The notes under the pieces: generated by a model | Told to the model about the DNA's origin: nothing | The model's database searches: none | What the model saw: the letters and a program-made list of their open reading frames with translations, nothing else | Source of the DNA: Saccostrea cucullata | Taxonomy: Eukaryota | Assembly: GCF_032062105.1 (NCBI RefSeq) | Contig: NW_026931334.1 | Coordinates: forward strand, 186,001-250,000 | Length of the DNA: 64,000 nt | Direction: 5' to 3' | In this document: positions 35,233 through 50,384 of the stretch, one piece after another | Layout of the letters: each line of letters begins with the position of its first letter | Numbering within the stretch: the stretch's first letter is position 1 | Program-made: the position numbers and the translations under genes

Positions 35233-38200
35233 AGTATTCAAGATCAAAAATCTATTAAACAATGCAAATTAAGAGCACGTATTTCACTTACAGTGTATCT
35301 AAAATCTTTAATTTCTGAAATAAATCTTCTTTAGGAAAGACACATTTCAACAAAATCTCGTCTGAAACAAATTCTTCATAGAATGACAATTTTCACCTAT
35401 CTAAAATGTTTTCTTAATGTATATTTGATATACCATGTCAAGAAATACAATTTATCACTGAGTACAATGCAAAATGTCGCTTTTCATATTAATATTTAGA
35501 TCATTATTTACGCAAGCATTTGTCTACAAAGTTTTTCCCGTTTTCCAAATTATGACAGGGGATGCCTACATCTCTGTGTTCAAGACAAGGAGCGCACAAC
35601 GAGTGTAACCAGTTTACAGGGGATGCTTACTCCTCTGTGGAACCTGATCCCACCTCAGATGTTTTTAGAGTTCCGCGTCAGCTCCGCTCCAGATTTGTTT
35701 TGTTTCGGTGGACTTTGATCTTGATTTATATATGTTCTTGTCTTTATATTTCATTTGTCTAAAATCTTTCTTAAATGAGTCTATTTGAAATGCACTTTTT
35801 ATCTTTTTGTATTTGAAATCTTTGCTCTATTGGGATGCCGATGCATATATAATGTATTAACTGTTCGTTGTCTGATTGCATGAAGTTAAGATAAGATGGA
35901 ATTTGTATTCTCTGAAAAAGTAATTATAATGTTCCAACCAGAAATAAATCTATCTGCAGAGTCCTTACTACGTCTCTCAATTTCTGCCAAATCATTGGTC
36001 ATCATAATCATGATCTAGGTTACTGTTCAGCTTTAAATCCTCAAACAAATAGGTGTGGTTAACCATCTGTCTCCTCCACTGAACAGACGCAGGTTTTTAC
36101 ATGTATTAAAAATTTAAAGCCAATCATTGTAGCATTTTTTTCACTGAATTTTATAATATAAAGACTCAATTTAGAATATATCTTTTTTTCTGGTATTAGC
36201 AATTGTTAATGTTAAATGTTACTTTCACTTTACCCATTCCCTATTTTCGATGCTTCTCTAATTCTCTTATATCTCTGGTCTTGGTATTCTTTGTGGATAC
36301 AGATGTATCCGAAGTAGATTTTGTTTTTAAATTATAATATAAAATTATAGGTACGAAATATAAGTACATATTCTTTAAAAAAAATAATGATTTTGCATTT
36401 TTTTAAAATACACGTTTTACAATTTGCATAAACGGCGTCATTTTTGCATTAAGCCCTTTTCACTTCAAATTAAATCAATTAGAGCATTTGAAGTAAACCT
36501 TGAAATATTGGACATCACAAAGGATTAACGTTTTTGTTTTAAAAGAACCCTTTAATGCTACAGTATGTAATAATTTTAAAGAAAGGTAAAAACAATCAAT
36601 TTTCCCATTGGCATGCATAATACAACCCCCTCTAAACACCGAAAACTTAAGAAAATTCGACTTTAAAGTGAAAAATTTTCATTTTCTGTAACACACGGGT
36701 AATTGTGATTTTTGTTTTTATTTTCAAAATTGCTGGTAGCGTTAAACGTATTGCGTAATATACTGTTAAAGGGTAAGATAAAATGTAAGCCCCTGTCAGT
36801 ATAGATTTTATCTATGTATAAATTTTCATTTGCAGTGATATGCATTGTCTTGTTTTGTACTTTTAGTTTGACATAATAGGTGCACATTTAGATGTATTAC
36901 AGAATTAGAATTGACATGACACTTTAAATTTTTTTACATTTTTACATATTTATATAATTGATAGTTTCGAGGTAGATGTATATCAAAGATGTCTTTCAAA
37001 TAGATAAAATCCATTCATGATTATAGAGCTAATATATTAGAGTTTACCATGATATATTCTACGCAAAGAAATTCAACTTTTCATGATAGATCTTTTAACA
37101 TGAATAATGTACTGATCTTATTTTCAATTATGGAAAAATATTTAAATTAATTATAATGTCGATTTCTAGAAATCGATCATATAAATATTTTGTGAGTGAA
37201 TAGAATTTTTAAAAAATAAAATTGCAATTTTGCAAAGAATAGGTATAAAAATGTTTGAACCAAAGATGGTCTTTTAACTTTTATTTTGTGTCCAGCTGTA
37301 ATCTATCATGTCATTAAACATAATTTTGATGAATTATCAAATATTTTCTTAATCTTAATTTATATCGAAACATGAGTATATTGAATGCCTTCTTAAACAT
37401 GTGTAATCTAAGGAGAAATTAAGTGGAGACTACAATGAGAACACTAATTTTATCATCATTTCATGAAGAGGTCACTACTTATTCCTATTGTACTACAGAC
37501 TTTAAACATTAAATACAAAAGACGTCTTATGCTTCAAAAATAGTTATGAAATTAAATGCATCGATTGTGTCTTAATTTATAAATAAATTAAGTGAAAAAA
37601 TCTTTTCCATTGATCTCTGACTAAATTAAATGGTCTTGATGTGTTTCTTAGATGATTATAAGATAATGCAATTAGATAAAGTTGTTCTTCTTTGTTTGTT
37701 TCTTATGTAAAAGAAATAAACACCTGATGCATTTCAAATTAGACATTTAAAGAGTCCATGTGTTTTGTTAATGCTTACTTTAATCTACGTCTTCTATTGA
37801 TATATTAATATCTGACAACAACTGGTCCAACGTCACGGACTTAGTCCTGGATTTTACTCTGTGGCTATTTATTGAACTTTTCTTTGTTGTCTATTTTTAT
37901 GCTACAAATTAACTCGTGATAAATGTGAATTTGAAATCATTTGAAATATTCTATTCTTTGGCATGTTATCTCTCGTTAATTTGTCCCATGAAATATGATA
38001 CCCCGAGACTAAAATCAAGTGCATCTATGACAACAAAGCTAAGCAGAGATTTCTTAGTCCGCCACTGTCATAGAGTACTGCAAGCTATCTGACGTCACAA
38101 AAATAACCACAAGATTCAAGTGAGCGCTTTCAAAGATTTGAAATTTTCTTTATGGCGAAGAAAATGTATTTTAAATTGTGTGAATCACACTTGTCATTCA

Positions 38201-38964
38201 TCGATAAAGGAGAAAGTTTAAAATTGTGAGAAATCCATCGAATCTATGATATGCCTTGCTTTGCACCAGCTGTCAGGAATTGATCAGCATTAATAGATGT
38301 ATCATAGATTAAAGGAAACTAAATTTCAGACATTTACAGCTAAAAAATCTGAAATTTCAGAATATTTTGAATTTTTTAAAAAATTTTTCCAGTAAAAATA
38401 TGAACAGTTCTCCTTTTTTGGTTATGAGATGAGATAGGTTAACATAATTAACAGTAATATTAATCAATCAAAAAATCTACAAACATACAAATCTGTGAAC
38501 ATAGCACAAAATGTGGATTTCATAACACTCTAGAAATGGAATCAGGTGCCCAGGAATAATAAGCATCCCCTATTGACCTGCCACACACTTCTGGAGCCAT
38601 GTGTATTGATAATAAATGGTAAAATGCATTGAAAATACATCATAATAAATGTCAAACTAACTAAATGCAATTTTAAGATGCCATGTCTCTGATGTTAAAT
38701 ATTAGAGATGTTTAAAAACAGATGAACCATTTACTATCAGTATCTAAATATGATATGATCTGCCTACTATAGCTAACATCATACATGTAACCACACGAGC
38801 GACAGTCCAGTCAGTGGCGTGTCTGAGTGCGCCGTCCAGTCTTCGTTGTGGTAGACGTGTGGCTACCTCGAGTAGCCTCCTCGTTCACCGCGTACAGTTA
38901 ACCGTAATGTTATCCTTCCCTCAAAGACTAGCTAGAGTTTCAATGAATCAAACACATACCACCA
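35233..38964 (+). repeat. Segmental direct repeat, copy A (~3.7 kb)
   Basis: Colinear with 50385-54039 throughout, with scattered substitutions and indels; paired spurious ORFs 36663-36887 / 51723-51926. Confidence 0.93.
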
Positions 38965-39972
38965 CCTGATTCCTTGGAAATATTTTACCGCAATTTTCAC
39001 ATGTAAGATTGTAATTTTCAGTATCCACAATAGACTTTCTAAATCCAGATCCGTCGAGGAGAATTCGACACTTAGAAGCTTTGTTATTTTTTAAAGAAAT
39101 AAATCATGTAAAACTACGTCAGTCTTTCGTTATTTATGACGCCATCTTAGATTCATTTTAGACGCGCAGTCTATGTATGGTTTTTGATCAAATAAAAAAA
39201 ATCTAGAGTGGATCATGATCTATAAAGTAAATACGAATGATTTTCAAAGCAGTACGAATCTTTTCATGTAAAATTTTCTTTCATAAAACATTTGGTTACT
39301 TTAAAAATCAGGGGATGTGTATGTCATACGTTGTTGACACCCAGTGTCACTACAGTTTTCGATTTTGGTAAAAAAAAAACCATCAAGACTCGTACATGAT
39401 GTAAAAAGTAAATACGAATTGTTTTTAATCTCATGACATTCTATTTTTCTTAAAATATCAGTCAGATAAAGGTTAGATTCCAAGAATCCTTATGGATCTC
39501 ATAGTATGATTATATGAAAATCCGTGACCTCTGACCCCCATTGTTTCTATAGGTAAACCTATTTTAGCTTGATTTTTATCCTGATCATAATTCTTTTGAA
39601 ATAAAAACTATATCGGCACTCTTCCCTAGGTCCCTTCTCCCTAACCAACATGAGTTTTCCTGATCTCACCCTCTAAAAAGACTTAAAAGGCTTATTTTAT
39701 ACACTCGGGTCACTGGATTTCGCCTCGTCGCTTCGAGGTTTTTTACTCTTTTTTCCCCGACGGATGCATGTCATGTATCAATTCTAGTATGAAAAGAAGC
39801 AGGAAAATTTCCTTGTTTAGACCTGTATCATGATGGAATCCTACTATGAATACATACTCAATAATCCATGAAAATATATAAGTCCCAAAGCACAAATCAC
39901 ACACAATTTCAGTTCGCCATGATAGTTCGGCTCTCGCCATCTAGGTGCTCTCTTTAACGTCCATGCTCTGTG

Positions 39973-40009
39973 CATAAATACAGACGCTCTCCAGCAGTCG
40001 GCGTCATTC
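39973..40009 (+). promoter_or_regulatory. TATA-like box plus initiator for the RING-like ORF
   Basis: CATAAATA 39973-39980 and TCATTC 40004-40009, about 31 nt apart. Confidence 0.5.
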
Positions 40010-40027
40010 GTTAGTACCAGATTTTCT

Positions 40028-40858
40028 GTGCGTCACGATGGCTTCTGGAGATTTTCTGGATATTTCCTAGTTAACGGTGCTTATGTCGAAGCGGTTTGGA
40101 TCGTGAGGGACGTCACCACCGGGCGTGAGATAACAAGATGGCCAATAGCTACCCTGGGCCTAGCGAGAGATGAGGGGATAAGGGTACAGAGGCAGCGAAG
40201 ACCTAGGCTGAGACAGAGAAGGCGACGATCCACCCCTTATAGACGGGCAGACGATGCTGTGGCAGAGCGATATTCCAGCCCAGAGGCTTTCAGGAACCCA
40301 TCGCCCGCGCCGATCATCACTCCTAGGAGCCCGTCCCCCCCTCGTCGACCGCCTACCCCCACCTTGTCGCCCAGTCAAAGTCCCCAGGGAGCGGCCGGAG
40401 ATTGGGACTCTGATTCGGATTGGGAGCCCCCCGTGAACGACAGCTGGGCACCTAACCAGTCCCGGGAGGAAGAGCGGTTAGTACCCCCAACCAGTTCGCC
40501 AGTGCAGAGGGGCCCAATTCCAGTCTGGGGCATCCAGCTTCCCGAGGCCCGGATTGAGAGATGCACAGTATGCCTAGAGGAGGATCAGCCCTCCAACTAC
40601 GTATGCTGTGAGTGCCGGAAGAGGCCCGCCTGTTACCGGTGCTCGGAGGTGCTGGTCACCCAGAGACCACCCCTAGGCTGCTGTCCCCTCTGCAGACGAA
40701 GGGATCGGAGGCCCCCTATGTCCAGTACCGTGGCCACCCGCGGCTTCAGGGCACCCCGCGGGGTCAGATTACAACGTCCACGTCCCTTAAGACCGCCACC
40801 CCCTACCAGTGAGGACGACAACATCGGGCATTTAGTCCAGCGGCTGCCAAGGGAGTAA
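40028..40858 (+). CDS. GC-rich intronless ORF: Arg-rich basic patch, Ser/Pro-rich region and C-terminal RING-like zinc finger; possibly frameshifted at the 5' end (true ATG at 40038)
   Basis: Frame open 39926-40858 in a sharp GC island. Cys pairs CTVC..CCEC..CYRC..CPLCR. No in-frame ATG before the finger; ATG 40038 (cacgATGg) is one base out of frame. Confidence 0.6.
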   Translation: MRHDGFWRFSGYFLVNGAYVEAVWIVRDVTTGREITRWPIATLGLARDEGIRVQRQRRPRLRQRRRRSTPYRRADDAVAERYSSPEAFRNPSPAPIITPRSPSPPRRPPTPTLSPSQSPQGAAGDWDSDSDWEPPVNDSWAPNQSREEERLVPPTSSPVQRGPIPVWGIQLPEARIERCTVCLEEDQPSNYVCCECRKRPACYRCSEVLVTQRPPLGCCPLCRRRDRRPPMSSTVATRGFRAPRGVRLQRPRPLRPPPPTSEDDNIGHLVQRLPRE

Positions 40859-40966
40859 ATCTTTCCCAAAAAATTAGATTATTTTTTTTAGAAATACAGT
40901 CAAAGAAACCATTGTGTCTTAGAAAAGATTATCTTTTAAAAAATATAGTCAAAAAAGAAACGTTAT

Positions 40967-41465
40967 CCCAGCTAACACAAAAACATTTTGAAAATGTTTT
41001 ATTTTTAAAATGTTTTTAAAACATTTTCAAAATGTTGCGAAAACATTTTTAAAAATATTTTAATCACGAGATTTTGTATGGTTTTTTAAACGTTATTAAA
41101 ACATTTTTGTGAAATATTTCAGCAAAATGTTGTCAGAACATTTTCTTAAAATGTTGCAAAAACATTTTCAATAATGTTTTAATCACGTGAATTTGTATGG
41201 TTTTTTAAACGTTTTTAAAACATTTTAGTGAAATATTTCAGCAAATGTTTCCGGAATATTTTTTTAAATGTTACAAAAACATTTTTCAACAATGTTTTAA
41301 TCACGTGATTTTGTATGGTTTTTAAAAATGTTTTTAAAACATTTTACAAAATATTTCAACAAATGTTATCATAATATTGTTTTAAAATGTAACAAAAACA
41401 TTTTCAAAAATGTTTTATTCACATTTAATTTGTTTGGTTTTTAAAACGTTTTCAAAACATTCAAA
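40967..41465. repeat. CCCAGCTAACAC terminus followed by a ~119-bp tandem repeat (~3.7 units) rich in AAAACATTTT/AAAATGTTTT; CACTA/EnSpm-like subterminal region
   Basis: Unit anchors AATCACG.G...TTTGTATGGTTTT at ~41062, 41181, 41299 and a degenerate one at ~41417. The partner TIR was not found, so the superfamily is inferred. Confidence 0.6.
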
Positions 41466-43222
41466 TCGAGGTTAAAAAGGAATTTTTCCTGAAATTTTAC
41501 TTTTTCTCACTAAATAATGATATATTTATATTTTAAAAGAAATAAACACAAATTATATTTAATTTTTGAACCTTTAATATAAACCCATATTCAATATGTT
41601 AATCACATTTAAATTCCATTCTCGGTACAAGTTTTAATTTATTTTCTTTCAAGTCACCGGGTTTTTAAAGGTTGAAAACGGCGTCTTATCCATTCACTGA
41701 ATTTTAAAAGAACAGAATCACAGAAATCCTATGTTCTCTGTATAGGTCAAACAGAGCGGCGGATCTACAAGACTTAGTTAGAATCACATGAACTGAAAAG
41801 GCTGATAAGGAATCTGCCCCTCGAAAAGAATAGCACAACCTGTAAAGATAAGGAAAATTGTGTTTGTATCAGCGTTCTACATCTAATGTATCTTTAAGAT
41901 GATCAATGTCTTGCCTCATTTGCATTGAAAAAAGCAGAAAAATAATTACTATGACAATATTATTGAAGAGTAATAGTATTTACGTACACGTTTGCCTTCA
42001 CCAATGGCGGGTCTTTTGAATGTGGGAATTTGAAAATACGGATGATGTAACCAACACCATGCTGTAAAGAAATTTCATTTTTAAATCAACATATTGTTTG
42101 ATGATTAATATTTCACAAATAAAGTGAATACTTGAATCAAGGTGTAATATTATTGTAAATAATATGTTTTATGCATTCATTTATAATTTTACATTTCTGT
42201 GGTTAGAATGTAGTGTTTGTAATATATTTTTGTATATCACAGGTTTCAGGGTTAACAAAGTTAGGTAATGCATAGGCTCAGGTTTCGGGGTTTTGCGGTA
42301 ATTAGACGTTAGATATTGTCACAGATGTCACGTGATTGTCATCACTGTTGATGCATCAAGTGTTGGTACACGTTATTTTTTGTACGAAAAGCATACCCTC
42401 CACCACCCCATACAACCATCCCTTAGGTTAAGCTTTAATTTGGGATGTAAATGTATTTCATACTTTAGTTTGTTTTATGGCCTATTGTTTGTTGCCACCT
42501 TATTTTTCAGCTTAAATGTTTGATATGATAAATTTGTGTTTTTGAGTATTGTCATGATGTCATTTTAATTTTTGGGAGATCCATAACATGGTGTAGATAC
42601 TAATTGTAGAGAGTCATAGGATCTCCAAAATTTCATGTGTTTCATTTATGTCATCAATAAATGACATATCTACAACAATACTCATACTTGCTTCTTCATT
42701 CAATCTGAATAATAACAGAGCTGCGGGAAACTCAGTTTTTAATTTGCTTTATTATCATATGGAAAGCATAAATATAACTGTGTTGCCTTAAGAATGAAAT
42801 ATTCAAATCAAATACATGTATATAACCTTAAATTGCTACATACCTTTGTACAAAGTTATTGATCATGCACTGGTAGTATAAAAGTCATTTTTAAAGTCAA
42901 CGATAAAGGAATAATTCTTACCATTCAAAGTTAATAAATCCCGAGGTTATTACCGGCCGCCAGGAGGCGGTCGGTTATATGATATGAAAGTTTGAAGTCG
43001 CTGAGCGTTTCTGCGGAGTTTAAATAAAAAATATTTAAAATTAATATAATAGTATATTAAAAAGAGCGTCTAAATGTTTATCAAGAACGCACAATAAACA
43101 TAAAATTAATTTTTTTTTTTATAAAGAATGAGGGAAATATTTCATCCAATCCTGATTGAGTAACTTTGACATGTTTGAGGTGCGGTGAAAATTAGGACAT
43201 GTGTGTTGGGTATAGTCTAAAG

Positions 43223-43844
43223 TGTAACGTGTTTGCCTAACACATATAATATATGATTTTTCTCTGGGTCTAGGGCCCCCTCAGATACCTTGCTGAGGAA
43301 TTTGATTGTTGACTGAAACTTATTTACATATGCAAAATATACAGATATCGGGTGCTTCCCTAGCACGCAAATAAACGAAATAATTAATTAAACCGCCTCT
43401 TAATCAGTTGAGCTTCTATCTCTGAAGCGACTTCCAGAAGCGCCACAAAGAAACAACCAACGCGCCAGCACGTCGCTTCTCCCAGAAGCGACAGGTTACT
43501 CTTAGATTAATACAGAAAGTCCGTTTATGCAACGCTCACGTAGACTGTTACATACTACTGGGTAAAACCTGTTCTGCACATCGCATAGCAATTATGACTT
43601 ATGAACAGACTTACCGCTGTTGTCTATCTCAAACTATATAGGCCTTCCGGACTTCTTCTCTGGCACTTTATCGCATCAGTAACCGCATCAGAAACTGACT
43701 CTATCGAGTCTCGACGCCTTATATATACTATGAGTATATCACGTGACATACCCACTCGGAATGTCTGGGAACCTGGCGTTTTACGAGCTCAGAGTCCCTT
43801 CGGAACGCCCTGTCTCCTTCCTTTAATTATCTATTTCCGTTACA
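43223..43844 (-). repeat. 3' LTR of the Gypsy element
   Basis: Direct repeat of 49122-49743 with about 4 substitutions seen by eye; purine-rich GAGGCGTGGGTAA immediately upstream on the minus strand (candidate PPT). Confidence 0.96.
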
Positions 43845-43998
43845 TTACCCACGCCTCAGATTCAAGTGTCCTCGCTTGCATAGGAAAATAAAACAAAGAG
43901 ACATATTATAGACCGTTTTTCTTATTTACAATGATTCGAATGCTGTCAATTCCTTTGACAAGTAAGCTGTATATACATATACTACATCAATAACCAGT

Positions 43999-46900
43999 CT
44001 AGCAAAGATCTACTACATAATCTGATAAATAAGCAGGAGTCCGTCTGCTTCTACTAGATCTTTGGGGATTCTGATTGATCTCTGGATCATTAACACCCTC
44101 TCTATCAAAGTCCAACTCTTCTAACTGATCTTGTTGTAACGTGAGATTTTCATTCTGGTCGACATCACCAGAATCACTTAGTTCTACCTCACCAGACAGA
44201 ATCTGAGGTTTAACCAACCTCATTCTGTCTACATGTATCACCTGTGGCGACCCTTTACTACCACAAGATAATTTGTACGTGAATTCGGAACATTTTTCTA
44301 GAACTTCGAAAGGTCCTTGCCAAAAGCTTGTCAGCTTTGGCGTAGTACCCATACGTCTGCGAGGAAAGAATACGTAAACGTGGTCTCTTGGAGAGAATCT
44401 CTGCCACCGTAACTTCTTGTCATGGTAGCGTTTTTGACGCATCATTTCCCCTCTAGTATTTTCCCTCACAATACGGTGTGCTTCTTCCAGTCTCTCCTGA
44501 AGCAACCAGGCCCATCTATTCTGTGGAATTGGCTTTCGCTGTACCTCCATTTCGTATACGAGGTCTAGAGGCGTTGTCGCTTCTCTACCAAGCATAAGGT
44601 AGTTTGGGGAGAAGCCAGTGGTGTCATGCTCCGCTGATCTATATGCCATCATGACATACGGCAACTGTTCGTCCCAATCTGTACGATTTTTGTTCACGCA
44701 GGAACTTAACATGGCTTCTAGAGTTCGATTAAACCTTTCCACCATACCATCTGACTGCGGATGGTAGGGTGTAGTGCGAGTCTTTTCTATTTGCAGTAGT
44801 TCGCACACCGAACGGAACAAATCACTCTCGTATTGACGGCCTTGATCTGAGTGTATTGTATAGGGTACTCCGAATCTAGTGATGACTTGTTCAACTAGAA
44901 TCTTTGCCACAGTTTTTGATTCCATATTTGGCATTGGAAAACATTCAGTCCAGCGAGTAAAATAATCTGAAACTACCAGTATGTATCTGTTTCCAGATTC
45001 TGTCAATGGCAATTCCCCCATAATATCTGTTGCTATTCTATCCATGGGGAATCCATTCTGAACAATTTGCATCGGCGCTTTCTGGCTAGTAAATGATGGC
45101 TTTCTTCTGGCACAGATGTCACATCCATTTATATACCGACGAACATCTTTGTTAAGCCCTGGCCAATAAAATTGACTTCTTATCTTGGCGATGGTTTTGT
45201 TTATACCTAGGTGACCTGCAGTACGCTTGTCATGGTATTCCTTTAGAATATGCCTTCTCTCAGACATAGGCACTATTATCTGGAGCTTTTCCATCTTTGT
45301 CTCTTGGTTAATGGTTCTCCGATATAATAAATCGTCTTGAATGGTTAGTAAACTTAGCTGTGACCATAGAGAACGTAGAAATGCACTTTGACTAGCAACT
45401 TCTCTAAATGATGGTTTCTTTTCCTGATCCATCCAACGTTTTACAAGAACAATTTCTTTGTCTTCTCTTTGGACCCTATGGAGATAAGTCTCTTGAATAA
45501 CTGAGGCGTCTATTGTTGCAGTTCTTACTTTGGGTTCTTCTTTTTCCTTATCCCAGTCTACTTTGAATCCACATTGCTTACAAGGAAGACGACTAAGCGC
45601 GTCGGCGTTTTGGTGTAGCTTGCCTGGTCGATGTTGGATCTCTATGTCATACGTGGACAGCACTTCAAGCCAGCGAGCAAGCTGTCCCTCTGGATTTTTA
45701 AAGTTGGTCAGCCATCTCAGCGAGCTGTGGTCCGTGCGCAAAATAAACTTACGCCCGTAGAGGTAATGCTTAAAATACTTAGTAAAATATACTGCCGCCA
45801 GCAACTCTTTTCTCGTCACGCAGTATTGCCTTTCAGACTTTGTAAAAGTCTTACTGGCGTAGGCAATCACTCGTTCTTTACCATCGTGCACTTGCGACAA
45901 TACTGCTCCCATTGCAAAGTTACTTGCGTCCGTGTCCAATATGAACGGCTTACTAAAGTCAGGATGTGCAAGGATGGGGGCACTTGTCAATGTAGCTTTT
46001 AACTTTTCGAAAGCACTTTGGCAATCCTCACTCCAAACGAAAGATTTGCTTTTCTCTGTCTGTTTGTGAAGGGGTTTTGCTATACTCGCAAAGTCTTTCA
46101 CAAACTTCCTGTAGTAGCTACATATACCCAGGAATGAACGTAGCTCACTCACATTGGCTGGCACTGACATTTCCTTAATCGCCTCAATCTTCTTTGGATC
46201 CGTAGTAATACCCTTCTCGGAAATTATGTGTCCGAGATATTCTACAGACTTGCAAAACAAGGAACACTTCTTGGTCTTCAGTTTCAAGCCTGCATTTGCC
46301 AATCGGTCGAACACTTTGCTCAGGTTCTCCACCATGCCCTCAAATGTCTTACTAATGACGATGATATCGTCCAAGTAAATCAAACATATTTCCCAGTTCA
46401 ACCCTGCAAGGACTGTCTCCATCAATCTTTCAAATGTCGCTCCGGCATTGCACAAGCCGAAGGGCATCACTTTAAATTGATACAATCCTTTTCTTGTGGC
46501 AAAAGCAGTCTTTATTTTGTCACTGGTCTCCATTTCCACCTGCCAGTATCCCATAGCCAAGTCGAGAGTTGAAAACCACGAAGCACCACTTAGACTATCT
46601 AACATGTGATCAATCCTCGGAAGAGGGTAAGCATCTTTCAAAGTAACCGCATTTAATCGCCTATAATCTATACAAAATCGAGTTGATCCATCCTTCTTCT
46701 TCATTAGAACGATACCCGAGGCCCACGGACTAGACGAAGGTTCAATTACATCCCTCTCAAGCATATCGTCCACCAACCTATCTGCTTCTTCTCTCATGTG
46801 TACCGGTAACCGTCTTGGTGGCTGTTTTATTGGGCGTGCGTCTCCCGTGTCGATACAATGCTTGACAACATTTGTTCTGCCAAGTCCATCATCTGAACCA

Positions 46901-49008
46901 GCAAACAGAAAAGCATATCTGGATAACAGTTTATCTACTTCAGTCTTCTGTTTTTGGTTTAAGCACGTTTTTGACTTTTCACTTAAGACCTGCAGCTCTT
47001 TTGAAAAAGGTTTCTTATGACCGCTATCTTGATTTTCTCCTTCTAATATCTTTACCACGGGGCTAAGCTGTCCCATATTTGTTCCCTTGTAAATCGTCTG
47101 TGCATCGGTCGATAGATTCATAACTCGTATTGGAACCTTATTATGATTGCTCACCAGAGTTCTGCCAACCAAACCTTTATTTGAATCTAGCAAACAATTC
47201 CTTGGCTCTACAACACCATATCCACTTGGAAGGTTCTTGCCCTCTGGTACGCATACGTCACAGCTTGCAATCATTTCACTTCTTGGTGGTATAGTGAACG
47301 ATTCTGAAGCCACCACCCGATAACATCCTAGCATACCTTGAAGCAGTAAAGAATAATGTTCACCATTTATTGACATTACTTTCTTGGAGACGTCCAACTT
47401 GCAATTTTGTTCATTCATGAAATCCAGACCCAAGATTCCATCCACTGTTATATCAGCGACCACCACTGTTCTCACAAAGTTACTCGAACCGATTGTTAAG
47501 GTTAATGTAGCTTTGCCAAAAAGTTTTAGAGGTCTACCTTCAGCAGACATTATGTCTTGGTGCATACTATCCAAAACAAGATTTTGATGAACCTTTTGTA
47601 TTTCACTGAAGACATTCTTTGAAATGAGCGTAACGGTTGCTCCTGTATCGATCAACAATTTTGTGTCTACATCTTCTATATTAGCTGAGAGATACATTCC
47701 AGCCTCACTTGGTCTATTGTAAGCAATTGGTTGCAGCTTACGTTGTGTTCTAACTGTCTTAGCAGAACAATGACCCGGTGCTTTAGAGTTTTTGCCAAAC
47801 TTCTTCGTTGTTTCGTTTAGCTGCTTCGAAGGACAATGTTTGCTAATGTGTCCTTCTTTACGACAATTGTAGCACTTTATTGTTCTTGGGGGTTGCCGTG
47901 GCTTCTTGTCATTGCGATCCGTCCAGTTCATTGAGCTAAGTGACTTACTCTTCATTTCACGCATTTCTGTCTTAAGTTCCATAACAGAACTTTGCAAATC
48001 TCTAAGAGTTTTGGTCAGCTCGTCGGTATTTATCTGGGATTTGAACTGAACATTATCGTGATCTGTTTCTGTAACTACACGCAAGTGTGACTTGTATTCC
48101 GATCTTCTGGAGTCAGCTCTGACAAAGGCTTCTAATTCAACCGCTAGCCTTATAGCGTCGTTCAAACTCTGGGGTCTAGCTTGTTTAATTCTAAGACGCA
48201 TGTCTGCATCAACCAAAGCATCGATAAACTGTTCCTTAGATAAAGTCTCCTGAACGTCGTTTGGTGCTGTAGGATAGGCAAGATGTGTTAGCCTCCGAAT
48301 TGACTGTCCTAATTCTGGGAGCGTCTCAGTCGCTTTCTGTCTTCGTTCTCGTAGTTGAACTCTGTATAGTTCTGTCTGGTTTGCAGGGGCAAAACGATCC
48401 TCAAGCGCCTTAATCAGTTCATCATAGTTCCTTCCATCATCTCTACTCAAATTCCCAAGCACTCCCTGTGCTTGTCCCCTCAGAGAGACTGCTAAATAAA
48501 GACCCTTTTCTCTAACGCTCCAACCATTCAATGAAGAGCACGCCTCAAAGTGTGATTTATAATCAAGCCACGACCCAATCCCGTCATACGTAGCTGGTTT
48601 AATATAATTAGATGGCTTCTTTACCGTACTCTCTTCCTTTGGTTTTGCTTCGTTATTAGTATTTTCAAGGAAGCGCCGTAGTCTGACTGTTACTCCTGGT
48701 TCATCCTCTCTGGCCTTGATATTTGTGTCGCTTCTTAAAATGGGATCTTGTTCTAAATTGCCAATTCCTGGTGTCTCACGAAGAATTCCACTATGCACTC
48801 TAGCCGAAGCTTGGTTAACATCTTCTATAGGACTTTGGGTCATTATTCCTGAGTCGCTTCTACGAGCTGCAGTCGTTCTTATACTAGCTGGAGTAGACGT
48901 TCTCTGATCATGATTGTACGAGGATAATTCAGAATTCTCAAGCGTCTTCCTTCCTAAACGTGTAATTTCGGCTTCCAACCTTGCTATTTCTTCGTCTAAG
49001 CTCGACAT
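43999..49008 (-). CDS. Gag-Pol polyprotein (CCHC knuckle, aspartic protease, dUTPase-like insert, RT, RNase H, integrase)
   Basis: First ATG at 49008 (the track starts at an upstream TTG). Motifs: CYNCRKEGHISKHC, LIDTGA, MPFGL/YLDD, DTDAS, H-x6-H...CDIC, ATDIMG/HSDQG/GMVER, WQGPF. Confidence 0.96.
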   Translation of the reverse strand: MSSLDEEIARLEAEITRLGRKTLENSELSSYNHDQRTSTPASIRTTAARRSDSGIMTQSPIEDVNQASARVHSGILRETPGIGNLEQDPILRSDTNIKAREDEPGVTVRLRRFLENTNNEAKPKEESTVKKPSNYIKPATYDGIGSWLDYKSHFEACSSLNGWSVREKGLYLAVSLRGQAQGVLGNLSRDDGRNYDELIKALEDRFAPANQTELYRVQLRERRQKATETLPELGQSIRRLTHLAYPTAPNDVQETLSKEQFIDALVDADMRLRIKQARPQSLNDAIRLAVELEAFVRADSRRSEYKSHLRVVTETDHDNVQFKSQINTDELTKTLRDLQSSVMELKTEMREMKSKSLSSMNWTDRNDKKPRQPPRTIKCYNCRKEGHISKHCPSKQLNETTKKFGKNSKAPGHCSAKTVRTQRKLQPIAYNRPSEAGMYLSANIEDVDTKLLIDTGATVTLISKNVFSEIQKVHQNLVLDSMHQDIMSAEGRPLKLFGKATLTLTIGSSNFVRTVVVADITVDGILGLDFMNEQNCKLDVSKKVMSINGEHYSLLLQGMLGCYRVVASESFTIPPRSEMIASCDVCVPEGKNLPSGYGVVEPRNCLLDSNKGLVGRTLVSNHNKVPIRVMNLSTDAQTIYKGTNMGQLSPVVKILEGENQDSGHKKPFSKELQVLSEKSKTCLNQKQKTEVDKLLSRYAFLFAGSDDGLGRTNVVKHCIDTGDARPIKQPPRRLPVHMREEADRLVDDMLERDVIEPSSSPWASGIVLMKKKDGSTRFCIDYRRLNAVTLKDAYPLPRIDHMLDSLSGASWFSTLDLAMGYWQVEMETSDKIKTAFATRKGLYQFKVMPFGLCNAGATFERLMETVLAGLNWEICLIYLDDIIVISKTFEGMVENLSKVFDRLANAGLKLKTKKCSLFCKSVEYLGHIISEKGITTDPKKIEAIKEMSVPANVSELRSFLGICSYYRKFVKDFASIAKPLHKQTEKSKSFVWSEDCQSAFEKLKATLTSAPILAHPDFSKPFILDTDASNFAMGAVLSQVHDGKERVIAYASKTFTKSERQYCVTRKELLAAVYFTKYFKHYLYGRKFILRTDHSSLRWLTNFKNPEGQLARWLEVLSTYDIEIQHRPGKLHQNADALSRLPCKQCGFKVDWDKEKEEPKVRTATIDASVIQETYLHRVQREDKEIVLVKRWMDQEKKPSFREVASQSAFLRSLWSQLSLLTIQDDLLYRRTINQETKMEKLQIIVPMSERRHILKEYHDKRTAGHLGINKTIAKIRSQFYWPGLNKDVRRYINGCDICARRKPSFTSQKAPMQIVQNGFPMDRIATDIMGELPLTESGNRYILVVSDYFTRWTECFPMPNMESKTVAKILVEQVITRFGVPYTIHSDQGRQYESDLFRSVCELLQIEKTRTTPYHPQSDGMVERFNRTLEAMLSSCVNKNRTDWDEQLPYVMMAYRSAEHDTTGFSPNYLMLGREATTPLDLVYEMEVQRKPIPQNRWAWLLQERLEEAHRIVRENTRGEMMRQKRYHDKKLRWQRFSPRDHVYVFFPRRRMGTTPKLTSFWQGPFEVLEKCSEFTYKLSCGSKGSPQVIHVDRMRLVKPQILSGEVELSDSGDVDQNENLTLQQDQLEELDFDREGVNDPEINQNPQRSSRSRRTPAYLSDYVVDLC

Positions 49009-49098
49009 TTTTTTCAAAGCAACGAAACTTTACAAATAATGAAACATAAGAAATATATTTAGTTTACTATTTTTAATTCAATCAAGCAACCAAATCAA

Positions 49099-49116
49099 GC
49101 CCCACGTTGGGCGCCA
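49099..49116 (-). promoter_or_regulatory. Primer-binding site complementary to tRNA-Lys(CUU)
   Basis: Minus strand TGGCGCCCAACGTGGGGC, the classic Lys1,2 PBS, 5 nt after the 5' LTR. Confidence 0.92.
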
Positions 49117-49121
49117 TTTTC

Positions 49122-49743
49122 TGTAACGTGTTTGCCTAACACATATAATATATGATTTTTCTCTGGGTCTAGGGCCCCCTCAGATACCTTGCTGAGGAAT
49201 TTGATTGTTGACTGAAACTTATTTACATATGCAAAATATACAGATATCGGGTGCTTCCCTAGCACGCAAATAAACGAAATAATTAATTAAACCGCCTCTT
49301 AATCAGTTGAGCTTCTATCTCTGAAGCGACTTCCAGAAGCGCCACAAAGAAACAACCAAAGCGCCAGCACGTCGCTTCTCCCAGAAGCGACAGGTTACTC
49401 TTAGATTAATACAGAAAGTCCGTTTATGCAACGCTCACGTAGACTGTTACATACTACTGGGTAAAACCTGTTCTGCTTATCGCATAGCAATTATGACTTA
49501 TGAACAGACTTACCGCTGTTGTCTATCTCAAACTATATAGGCCTTCCGGACTTCTTCTCTGGCACTTTATCGCATCAGTAACTGCATCAGAAACTGACTC
49601 TATCGAGTCTCGACGCCTTATATATACTATGAGTATATCACGTGACATACCCACTCGGAATGTCTGGGAACCTGGCGTTTTACGAGCTCAGAGTCCCTTC
49701 GGAACGCCCTGTCTCCTTCCTTTAATTATCTATTTCCGTTACA
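49122..49743 (-). repeat. 5' LTR of the Gypsy element
   Basis: TG...CA ends; TATA-like TATATATAAG on the minus strand near 49617-49626; followed by the PBS. Confidence 0.96.
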
Positions 49744-50384
49744 AAAGCAAAGACCGTTATACAATTATACTTTCTCTATTTAAACAGGATTTGTTGTACA
49801 TATTTATTTTAAAATAAAGTGTACACATGTACATATATAAACATTTTCAAAAATATGGTTAAATGTTAATTCATCAAAATACCTAGCAGGCTACAGAATA
49901 TTACAAGATTTGGCCCTAGCAGACGAGGAAAATGCACGTTTTACAATGTGCTAAGAATTTTTCCGCTACAACTCAAAGAAACTGAAAGAGTTGTAGATTA
50001 CATTAAACTTTAGTTTTAAACTTTTTATGTAAATGTCTCTTAATTATACAGGCCCACGCTTTGTTGACGCGGAGGACCAGGGGTACTTTGCTTATACATG
50101 TAATACTGAACATGCATTTATAATTAAGAAAATCATGCAATGTCGTGCACAAGCGTTTAATGTCACAAGGATATATATTAACAGATAAATATAAGATATT
50201 TTAAAAACAGATCACCATTTCAGTCTTTCGTTGCTTCAGAAAAGGAACAATTAATTGGTTTGCGGCCGATTTTTGACGCTTGCGTCAATATATGTTTATT
50301 GTTATTGTGGTTTTATGGTACAAAGTCTTCTCATTCAAATCGGCACGGAATAAGCGCCATATTTTTGGGGACCGGTATACTAGA

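What the first reader, a model, noticed from the sequence alone, without database searches (positions are those of the whole stretch)
39926..40858. Alien GC-rich, intronless RING-finger gene with a virus-like layout
Seen: an abrupt GC-rich island in very AT-rich DNA, with a frame open for ~310 codons. It encodes a hydrophobic N-terminal segment (FSGYFLVNGAYVEAVWIVRD), a basic RQRRPRLRQRRRR patch, SP/TP repeats, an acidic DWDSDSDWE motif and an all-Cys RING-like finger (CTVC-x11-CEC...CYRC...CPLCR). Known: large DNA viruses of invertebrates (malacoherpesviruses, baculoviruses, nimaviruses) carry intronless RING E3-ligase-like early genes with disordered phospho-rich arms. Inference: a captured gene from an endogenous virus or Polinton-like element, possibly cargo of an undescribed mobile unit.
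Basis: partly seen in the sequence, partly recalled or inferred. Interest (0 to 1): 0.8.

Follow-up and report, generated by a model that had tools for sequence, protein, structure and literature searches.

The report
Broken RING gene from oyster Polinton
This GC-rich stretch is a stranded 1.9-kb piece of a Polinton (a virus-like DNA element with many copies in this genome, likely an oyster's), carrying a likely broken copy of a zinc-finger gene that in its intact relatives is predicted to act as a ubiquitin ligase against host defences.

Summary
The GC-rich open frame and its motifs are real (60% GC vs 32%; 5 of 2000 shuffles give as long a frame). It is not a standalone captured gene. It belongs to an accessory-gene family of Polinton/Maverick elements: 155 matches in this genome, with relatives inside elements that have AGTAGT ends, 6-bp target duplications, pPolB, integrase, ATPase and capsid genes. 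The window holds only a 1.9-kb relic (39056-40964, 80-82% identical to element copies) at the breakpoint of a tandem duplication. The family start codon (40038) is out of frame with the body and stops after 10 codons, so this copy is probably a pseudogene; the first 43 codons of the '310-aa ORF' are not part of the family protein. Unbroken relatives are under purifying selection (dN/dS 0.13 in the finger). They keep eight Cys and a RING-type terminal Arg and weakly match the herpesvirus ICP0 RING (E 7e-5); E3 activity is inferred. The gene is optional (6 of 16 element ends) and sits between a macrodomain-like and a GADD34/DP71L-like gene; an IAP lies elsewhere in the element. Known element class; I found no description of this gene family or cassette.

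The parts
38965..39054 (.). 90-bp piece of an unrelated dispersed repeat; left edge of the foreign DNA, directly at the end of the first copy of a tandem duplication
   Evidence: 93-96% to a repeat of 3 kb or more at other loci; the same join to Polinton DNA occurs at G000:C17657 (96% over 382 bp); duplication 35246-38964 vs 50394-54039
39056..39097 (+). Last codons (RRIRHLEALL...) of the element's GADD34/CReP/DP71L-like gene; the rest of that gene is absent
   Evidence: frame 39015-39161; whole gene in element copies matches PPP1R15B E 8.7e-5 and ASFV DP71L E 9.8e-4, Pfam PP1c_bdg E 1.7e-5, just under its cut-off
39098..39972 (.). Intergenic region of the Polinton between the GADD34-like gene and the RING gene
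   Evidence: 85-91% identical to the same region in element copies
39973..40009 (+). Promoter-like pair: CATAAATA (39973-39980) and initiator-like TCATTC (40004-40009); function inferred
   Evidence: CATAAATA in 32 of 39 and TCATTY in 37 of 39 distinct copies; places
40038..40070 (+). Family start codon; in this copy it opens only 10 codons before a stop and is out of frame with the body (the break lies in the first codons)
   Evidence: in 22 of 39 copies the matching ATG reads into the N-terminal box
40055..40159 (+). Conserved N-terminal box (YFLVNG..EAVWIVRD..TGREITRW), predicted beta-hairpin
   Evidence: R18 and E25 invariant in 22 of 22 rows; strands 11-18 and 25-34, pLDDT 85-91; dN/dS 0.20
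40160..40510 (+). Arg-rich patch, SP/TP repeats and DWDSDSDWEPP motif; predicted disordered linker, variable in length
   Evidence: dN/dS 0.31
40511..40696 (+). G-x-x-P-x-W motif and all-Cys (C4C4) RING-like finger ending CPLCR
   Evidence: 8 Cys, G153, P156, W158, N181, P191, P211, L212, R214 invariant in 22 rows; family profile hits EHV-1 ICP0 RING 1chc E 6.9e-5; Pfam zf-C3HC4_3 E 0.032, below cut-off; dN/dS 0.13
40697..40858 (+). Arg/Pro-rich tail ending in an acidic patch and IGHLVQRL, like the tail of the shorter type-B paralogues
40868..40964 (.). AT-rich repeated unit that follows RING-family genes in element copies; right end of the relic
   Evidence: 74-88% to many element loci
40965..42156 (.). 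Unrelated high-copy repeat with a 119-bp tandem array; further pieces at 42772-42952 and 50299-50357; bounds the relic on the right
   Evidence: none of the non-self matches (40 candidates scored) extends into the gene

Best explanation
The stretch is a 1.9-kb relic of a Polinton/Maverick element carrying a likely pseudogenised copy of the element's optional C4C4 RING gene, whose intact relatives are predicted to be ubiquitin E3 ligases that would mark host proteins for degradation. Shown: the gene family lies inside Polintons, in a slot between a macrodomain-like gene and a GADD34/DP71L-like gene near one end, often with a second paralogue, and it evolves under purifying selection. Shown: this copy has lost the rest of the element, and its start codon is out of frame with the body. 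Inferred: the finger binds an E2~ubiquitin, the N-terminal beta-hairpin or the acidic/phospho-rich linker recruits substrates, and the basic patch takes it to the nucleus, so that it works like herpesvirus ICP0, beside an IAP (apoptosis), a PP1 adaptor (eIF2-alpha shut-off) and a macrodomain (ADP-ribosylation). Inferred: the relic was left by deletion or copied in as filler at the breakpoint of the local tandem duplication, and other repeats inserted later.
For: 155 matches in the genome. 12 of the 19 best non-self loci have another element gene within 1.5 kb; three of the other seven lie inside TIR-bounded elements. Six elements have AGTAGT ends and 6-bp target duplications, five perfect and one 5 of 6; five of them carry RING-family genes. 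C3795 holds pPolB, ATPase, integrase, capsid, protease-like, macro-like and two RING-family genes. Pfam: DNA_pol_B_2 E 8e-52, BIR E 5e-19; rve E 3e-11, Pox_A32 E 9e-7. The capsid model matches adintovirus capsid, E 1e-7 (low-confidence model). The window piece is 80-82% identical over 1.7-1.8 kb to element copies. No other element gene was found in the window or 10 kb either side with 18 queries. dN/dS 0.13 in the finger and 0.20 in the N-box among 7 unbroken type-A copies. RING evidence. The invariant Arg after the last Cys and the CPLC loop match the E2-binding features of RING ligases (recalled).
Against: RING support is weak: Pfam is below cut-off (14.5 vs 27 bits), Foldseek has no match at E<=0.001, Atlas scores are under 0.9, the His is missing and the 4th-5th ligand gap is longer than usual. 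No test of ligase activity or substrate. The frame break was not checked in reads (depth near zero at 40015-40257), and only 8 of 39 copies read through unbroken, so assembly indels are possible. No evidence of transcription. Own-genome rows were picked with a Cys pattern, so their Cys invariance is partly circular; the three Saccostrea proteins are independent of that filter. dN/dS pairs are not independent of each other.
Confidence: 0.72

Rival explanations
1. Same Polinton origin, but the finger is not a ligase: it is a C4C4 interaction or nucleic-acid-binding module (like the TFIIH p44 finger), and the protein is a transcriptional regulator of the element.
For: All-Cys ligands; several top Foldseek rows are chains of TFIIH complexes (prob 0.38-0.44, E about 1; that these chains are p44/Ssl1 is recalled); basic patch and acidic tail would suit a transactivator.
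Against: The profile hits in the PDB are mostly E3 RINGs (ICP0, Mdm2/4, RLIM); invariant CPLCR with terminal Arg.
Confidence: 0.17
2. The window copy is intact or still used: the break is an assembly error or the body is translated another way, and the host keeps it as a domesticated gene.
For: The body is open for 267 codons, both promoter-like motifs are kept, indels are common among copies in this assembly, and Saccostrea relatives are annotated as host LOC genes.
Against: A 1676-codon Gypsy frame 3 kb away is unbroken, which suggests good local base accuracy. No in-frame Met before residue 265. The locus is a junction of repeats at a duplication breakpoint. No RNA evidence.
Confidence: 0.07
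3. The gene was captured from a large DNA virus (malacoherpesvirus, baculovirus, nimavirus) and inserted here.
For: Best solved-structure hit of the family profile is a herpesvirus ICP0 RING (E 6.9e-5); the neighbouring PP1 adaptor resembles ASFV DP71L. An older transfer from such a virus into the Polinton is not excluded.
Against: The identified neighbours are Polinton genes; no relative in 2.9 million viral contigs; the full-length named relatives are all from Saccostrea.
Confidence: 0.02
4. The gene is cargo of the adjacent satellite-bearing repeat (HINE/Helentron-like), and the two move as one unit.
For: The repeat starts directly at 40965; Helitrons capture genes (passage in PMC7492417).
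Against: None of the non-self matches reaches into the gene, and two copies inspected have unrelated left flanks.
Confidence: 0.02

Closest known systems
Polinton/Maverick elements (adintoviruses, Orthopolintovirales)
   Same: 19-26 kb, terminal inverted repeats, pPolB, RVE integrase, A32-type ATPase, protease-like and capsid genes (PMC4405056, passages); IAP accessory genes are noted in adintoviruses (PMC8502044, section 3.2); Polintons are abundant in bivalves (bioRxiv 10.1101/2025.04.19.649669, passages).
   Different: The window holds only a 1.9-kb relic. The parent carries a C4C4 RING family (0-2 or more per element), a GADD34/DP71L-like gene, a macrodomain-like gene and a degenerate Rep-like gene. 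'RING' and 'macro' have no occurrence in the main text of PMC8502044, and 'RING', 'macro' and 'GADD34' none in its held supplement, which was cut when stored.
Herpesvirus ICP0-type RING E3 ligases (EHV-1 RING, PDB 1chc)
   Same: Viral RING finger with long disordered Ser/Pro/acidic arms; best PDB hit of the family profile (E 6.9e-5).
   Different: ICP0 is C3HC4 with the finger near the N-terminus (recalled); here the finger is C4C4 and central to C-terminal, preceded by GxxPxW and a beta-hairpin box; similarity is limited to the finger.
C4C4 RINGs (CNOT4, TFIIH p44)
   Same: Eight Cys ligands, no His (recalled); weak Foldseek rows to TFIIH chains.
   Different: No significant sequence or structure match; spacing of x2 then x5 around the 4th ligand.
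Adintovirus 'Oncoid' genes
   Same: Small accessory proteins with paired CxxC and acidic CK2-like sites (PMC8502044, section 3.2).
   Different: No LxCxE motif seen in the 22 aligned proteins; Oncoids typically lie upstream of polB, whereas this gene mostly lies beyond the capsid block.

Membership tests
Polinton/Maverick (parent element) | Terminal inverted repeats and 15-20 kb size | tested here: met
   TIR-bounded elements of 18.9-26 kb; absent around the window relic
Polinton/Maverick (parent element) | AG-rich termini and 6-bp target-site duplication (feature recalled) | tested here: met
   AGTAGT ends; TSD perfect in 5 elements, 5 of 6 bases in a sixth
Polinton/Maverick (parent element) | Protein-primed PolB | tested here: met
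   PF03175 E 8.3e-52, in elements with RING-family genes
Polinton/Maverick (parent element) | RVE integrase | tested here: met
   PF00665 E 2.7e-11 plus chromodomain
Polinton/Maverick (parent element) | Packaging ATPase | tested here: met
   Pox_A32 E 9.3e-7, above cut-off
Polinton/Maverick (parent element) | Double jelly-roll major capsid protein | tested here: met
   Foldseek: adintovirus capsid E 1.1e-7, virophage capsid E 1.4e-5; model pLDDT only 32; no Pfam or PDB sequence hit
Polinton/Maverick (parent element) | Adenain-type protease and minor capsid protein | tested here: inconclusive
   Protease: best PDB hit ASFV S273R E 0.054, His/Cys motifs recognised from memory; minor capsid label is recalled only, no Pfam hit
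Autonomous Polinton (window copy itself) | Core genes and ends present at the locus | tested here: not met
   Only RING-family hits in the window and none in 10 kb either side; it is a relic
RING finger | Eight conserved metal ligands in RING-like spacing | tested here: met
   8 invariant Cys in 22 rows (19 rows pre-selected by pattern, 3 independent); PDB profile hit 1chc E 6.9e-5
C3HC4 RING | His as fourth ligand; Pfam gathering score | tested here: not met
   Cys instead of His; 14.5 bits vs cut-off 27
RING finger | Cross-brace fold | tested here: inconclusive
RING E3 ligase | E2-dependent ubiquitin transfer | not testable with these tools
   Only motif-level support: CPLCR with invariant Arg
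Adintovirus Oncoid | LxCxE Rb-binding motif | tested here: not met
   Not seen on reading alignment A1; type-A rows have YxCxE inside the finger
HINE/Helentron (adjacent repeat) | Subterminal inverted repeats, 3' palindrome, TT target | not tested
   Only the central tandem array and high copy number were seen

The most novel reading that the evidence does not exclude
Oyster Polintons are still-evolving viruses with a counter-defence cassette like that of large DNA viruses: an undescribed, expanding family of C4C4 RING ubiquitin ligases with a novel beta-hairpin substrate box, beside a GADD34/ICP34.5-type PP1 adaptor, a macrodomain and an IAP. The cassette would point to the antiviral pathways (eIF2-alpha shut-off, ADP-ribosylation, apoptosis, a degradable nuclear restriction factor) that molluscs use against them.
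Probability: 0.4. Interest if true: 0.65.

Novelty: new variant of a known kind. Interest (0 to 1): 0.4.

Why it matters
The window copy itself is debris. Its value is that it identifies a Polinton accessory family that databases list as uncharacterised or 'SRRM1-like' oyster host genes, and shows it in a cassette of likely host-shutoff countermeasures. If the predicted activities hold, animal Polintons meet and fight antiviral defence as viruses do, and the ligase's substrates would name mollusc restriction factors.

Full report
Observation. The frame 39926-40858 (+) is open for 310 codons and contains all motifs quoted. GC is 0.60 against 0.32 for the window, and 5 of 2000 shuffles of the same bases gave an open frame of at least 267 codons. 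GC is about equal at the three codon positions (0.60, 0.61, 0.62), and the gene is GC-rich even within its parent element (0.33-0.47 per kb). The only in-frame Met is residue 265.

A multi-copy family. A search of the own genome (1.17 Gb) gave 155 matches at E<=0.001, with 128 of 616 candidates scored; many have stops or are split between frames. Outside it, full-length relatives were found only in oysters: three Saccostrea echinata proteins named 'uncharacterized' or 'SRRM1-like' and a fourth weak one. A profile search of 1.84 billion representatives gave 35 hits; I looked up 10 of them, of which three clusters were named, all Saccostrea. The lower hits I read include generic RINGs. The host is therefore probably an oyster (inference). 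IMG/VR gave no relative.

The carrier is a Polinton. Twelve of the 19 best non-self loci have another element gene within 1.5 kb. Wider stretches put three more (C13131, C12922, C18642) inside TIR-bounded elements and showed element genes farther off for two; two (L006, L019) were not followed. Six elements have AGTAGT termini with 6-bp target duplications: C12503, C13131, C12922, C18642, C10951, and C3795 with one mismatch. C12503 keeps the upstream region but lacks the RING gene. C3795 (19.4 kb, itself broken in several genes) shows the order pPolB, ATPase, two or three unknown ORFs, integrase, minor capsid (label recalled), pX-like (label recalled), major capsid, protease-like, macro-like, RING-A, RING-B, GADD34-like remnant. 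Assignments: pPolB PF03175 E 8e-52 and IAP BIR E 5e-19; rve E 3e-11 and Pox_A32 E 9e-7; capsid by Foldseek to an adintovirus capsid, E 1e-7, from a poor single-sequence model; protease only E 0.054 to ASFV S273R. These are the Polinton core genes listed in PMC4405056 (passages). In 16 ends of capsid- and macro-bearing elements, chosen from the top hits and so not a random sample, 6 had a RING-family gene, each time between the macro-like and GADD34-like genes, and 10 had none. It is an optional accessory gene. In some rearranged or shortened elements it lies elsewhere.

What the window holds. Similarity to element copies runs from 39056 to 40964, at 80-82% over 1.7-1.8 kb for the best copies: the last codons of the GADD34-like gene, a 0.9-kb intergenic region, the RING gene and a short AT-rich downstream unit. 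Eighteen element proteins used as queries hit only the RING gene in the window and nothing in the 10 kb on either side. To the left lie 90 bp of an unrelated repeat, joined in the same way at C17657, and then the end of the first copy of a tandem duplication (35246-38964 vs 50394-54039). To the right begins a high-copy satellite-bearing repeat whose other copies do not extend into the gene; a young Gypsy element lies between its pieces. How the piece arrived (deletion remnant or repair filler) is inferred, not shown.

The copy is probably broken. Among 39 distinct copies of the upstream region, CATAAATA is present in 32 and TCATTY in 37, followed in most by an ATG 18-35 nt later. That ATG reads into the conserved N-terminal box in 22 of 39 and on through the finger in 8 of 39, by patterns that miss some variants. 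In the window this ATG is at 40038 and reads 10 codons to a stop, out of frame with the body. Public contigs gave almost no cover there, so an assembly error is not excluded; the unbroken 5-kb Gypsy frame nearby argues mildly against one.

The protein. Eighteen unbroken own-genome copies (7 type A, 11 type B, taken from the 23 distinct rows), three Saccostrea proteins and the window body align with invariant R18, E25, G153, P156, W158, N181, P191, eight Cys and PLCR. The tree separates long type A (window, Saccostrea) from short type B at 99/99 support, with a long-branch warning. Pooled NG86 dN/dS among the 7 type-A copies is 0.13 (finger), 0.20 (N-box) and 0.31 (linker); window against type A gives dS 0.60-0.78 and dN 0.07-0.11 in the finger; in type B synonymous sites are saturated. 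The pairs are not independent, and the copies were chosen by a Cys pattern. AlphaFold gives a confident N-terminal beta-hairpin and a folded finger in an otherwise disordered chain (pTM 0.32). The family profile's best PDB match is the EHV-1 ICP0 RING (E 6.9e-5), followed by Mdm4/Mdm2 and RLIM. Pfam is below cut-off, Foldseek finds nothing significant, and Atlas leads are mostly RING clusters with scores under 0.9.

Mechanism. Shown: Polinton accessory gene under purifying selection; relic state of this copy. From established knowledge (recalled): RING ligases bind E2 through the two Zn loops and the central helix and use an Arg after the last Cys, which is invariant here. Inferred: a nuclear viral E3 that removes host restriction factors, in a cassette with an IAP, a PP1 adaptor like GADD34/DP71L and a macrodomain-like protein. 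My odds: Polinton origin about 0.96, window copy non-functional about 0.85, E3 activity in intact relatives about 0.7-0.75. No transcription could be shown, because the RNA-labelled runs behave like DNA.

Literature. PMC8502044 (passages, section 3.2, and a search of its one held supplement, cut when stored) lists IAP, Bcl2 and Oncoid accessory genes and a Pinctada adintovirus; the terms RING and macro did not occur in its main text, and RING, macro and GADD34 did not occur in the supplement. bioRxiv 10.1101/2025.04.19.649669 (passages) reports abundant Orthopolintovirales regions in bivalves; its supplements were not seen and could annotate such genes. PMC11296320 (passages) added nothing on this gene. 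PMC7492417 (passages) describes oyster HINEs with central tandem arrays; the adjacent repeat was not tested against their features. Other papers were seen as search listings only. Eight searches found no description of this family.

Verdict. A real feature with a largely ordinary explanation at this locus: a decayed fragment of a known element class. The gene family and the counter-defence cassette around it appear undescribed and are testable. Interest 0.40; new variant of a known kind.

Noticed in passing
G000:C12503:29180-29689 (L084:7178-7690, -) and many element copies: Polinton gene with a GADD34/CReP/DP71L-like PP1-binding tail (RKSVTF...W...DRIRFRRRI); PDB hits PPP1R15B E 8.7e-5, DP71L E 9.8e-4. 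It overlaps a second conserved frame.
   Followed up: partly
L033:7877-8401 (-), L081:5650-6174 (+): Element gene resembling the nuclease domain of a CRESS-virus Rep (Pfam Viral_Rep E 0.032 in one of two copies tested, below cut-off), between protease and macrodomain-like genes; the HUH-like motif looks degenerate.
   Followed up: partly
G000:C10951:2421-21314; C18642:11175-37564; C10765; C18011; C12584: Element derivatives with large inverted arms that carry accessory genes (RING A and B, and others) on both sides; C10951 and C18642 have AGTAGT ends and perfect 6-bp target duplications, and no polB or capsid gene was seen in them.
   Followed up: partly
G000, genome-wide: A large, young Polinton family: 134 capsid matches among 132 scored candidates, many about 93% identical with long open frames; haplotype duplicates in the assembly may inflate this.
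   Followed up: partly
L034:7068-7706 (-); L038:147-671 (+); L038:6998-7888 (+): Other accessory genes: BIR+RING IAP next to pPolB; macrodomain-like gene (phrog_335 'phosphatase' E 5.8e-14; the macro label is recalled); coiled-coil protein with two CCHC knuckles next to the element end.
   Followed up: partly
window 43223-49743: Gypsy-type LTR retrotransposon with an unbroken 1676-codon gag-pol frame (-) and 622-bp LTRs 99.4% identical: very recent. It lies between pieces of the satellite-bearing repeat.
   Followed up: partly
window 35246-38964 and 50394-54039: Tandem duplication of about 3.7 kb, 83-87% identical; the Polinton relic starts at the end of the first copy.
   Followed up: partly
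window 17079-18739 (+): Two long open frames; the second encodes what looks like an ETS DNA-binding domain (recognised from memory), probably exons of a host transcription-factor gene.
   Followed up: no
G000:C17657:7976-8537 (L070): The same join of an unrelated repeat to the tail of the GADD34-like gene as in the window (96% over 382 bp), without the RING gene: the chimeric junction exists at least twice.
   Followed up: partly
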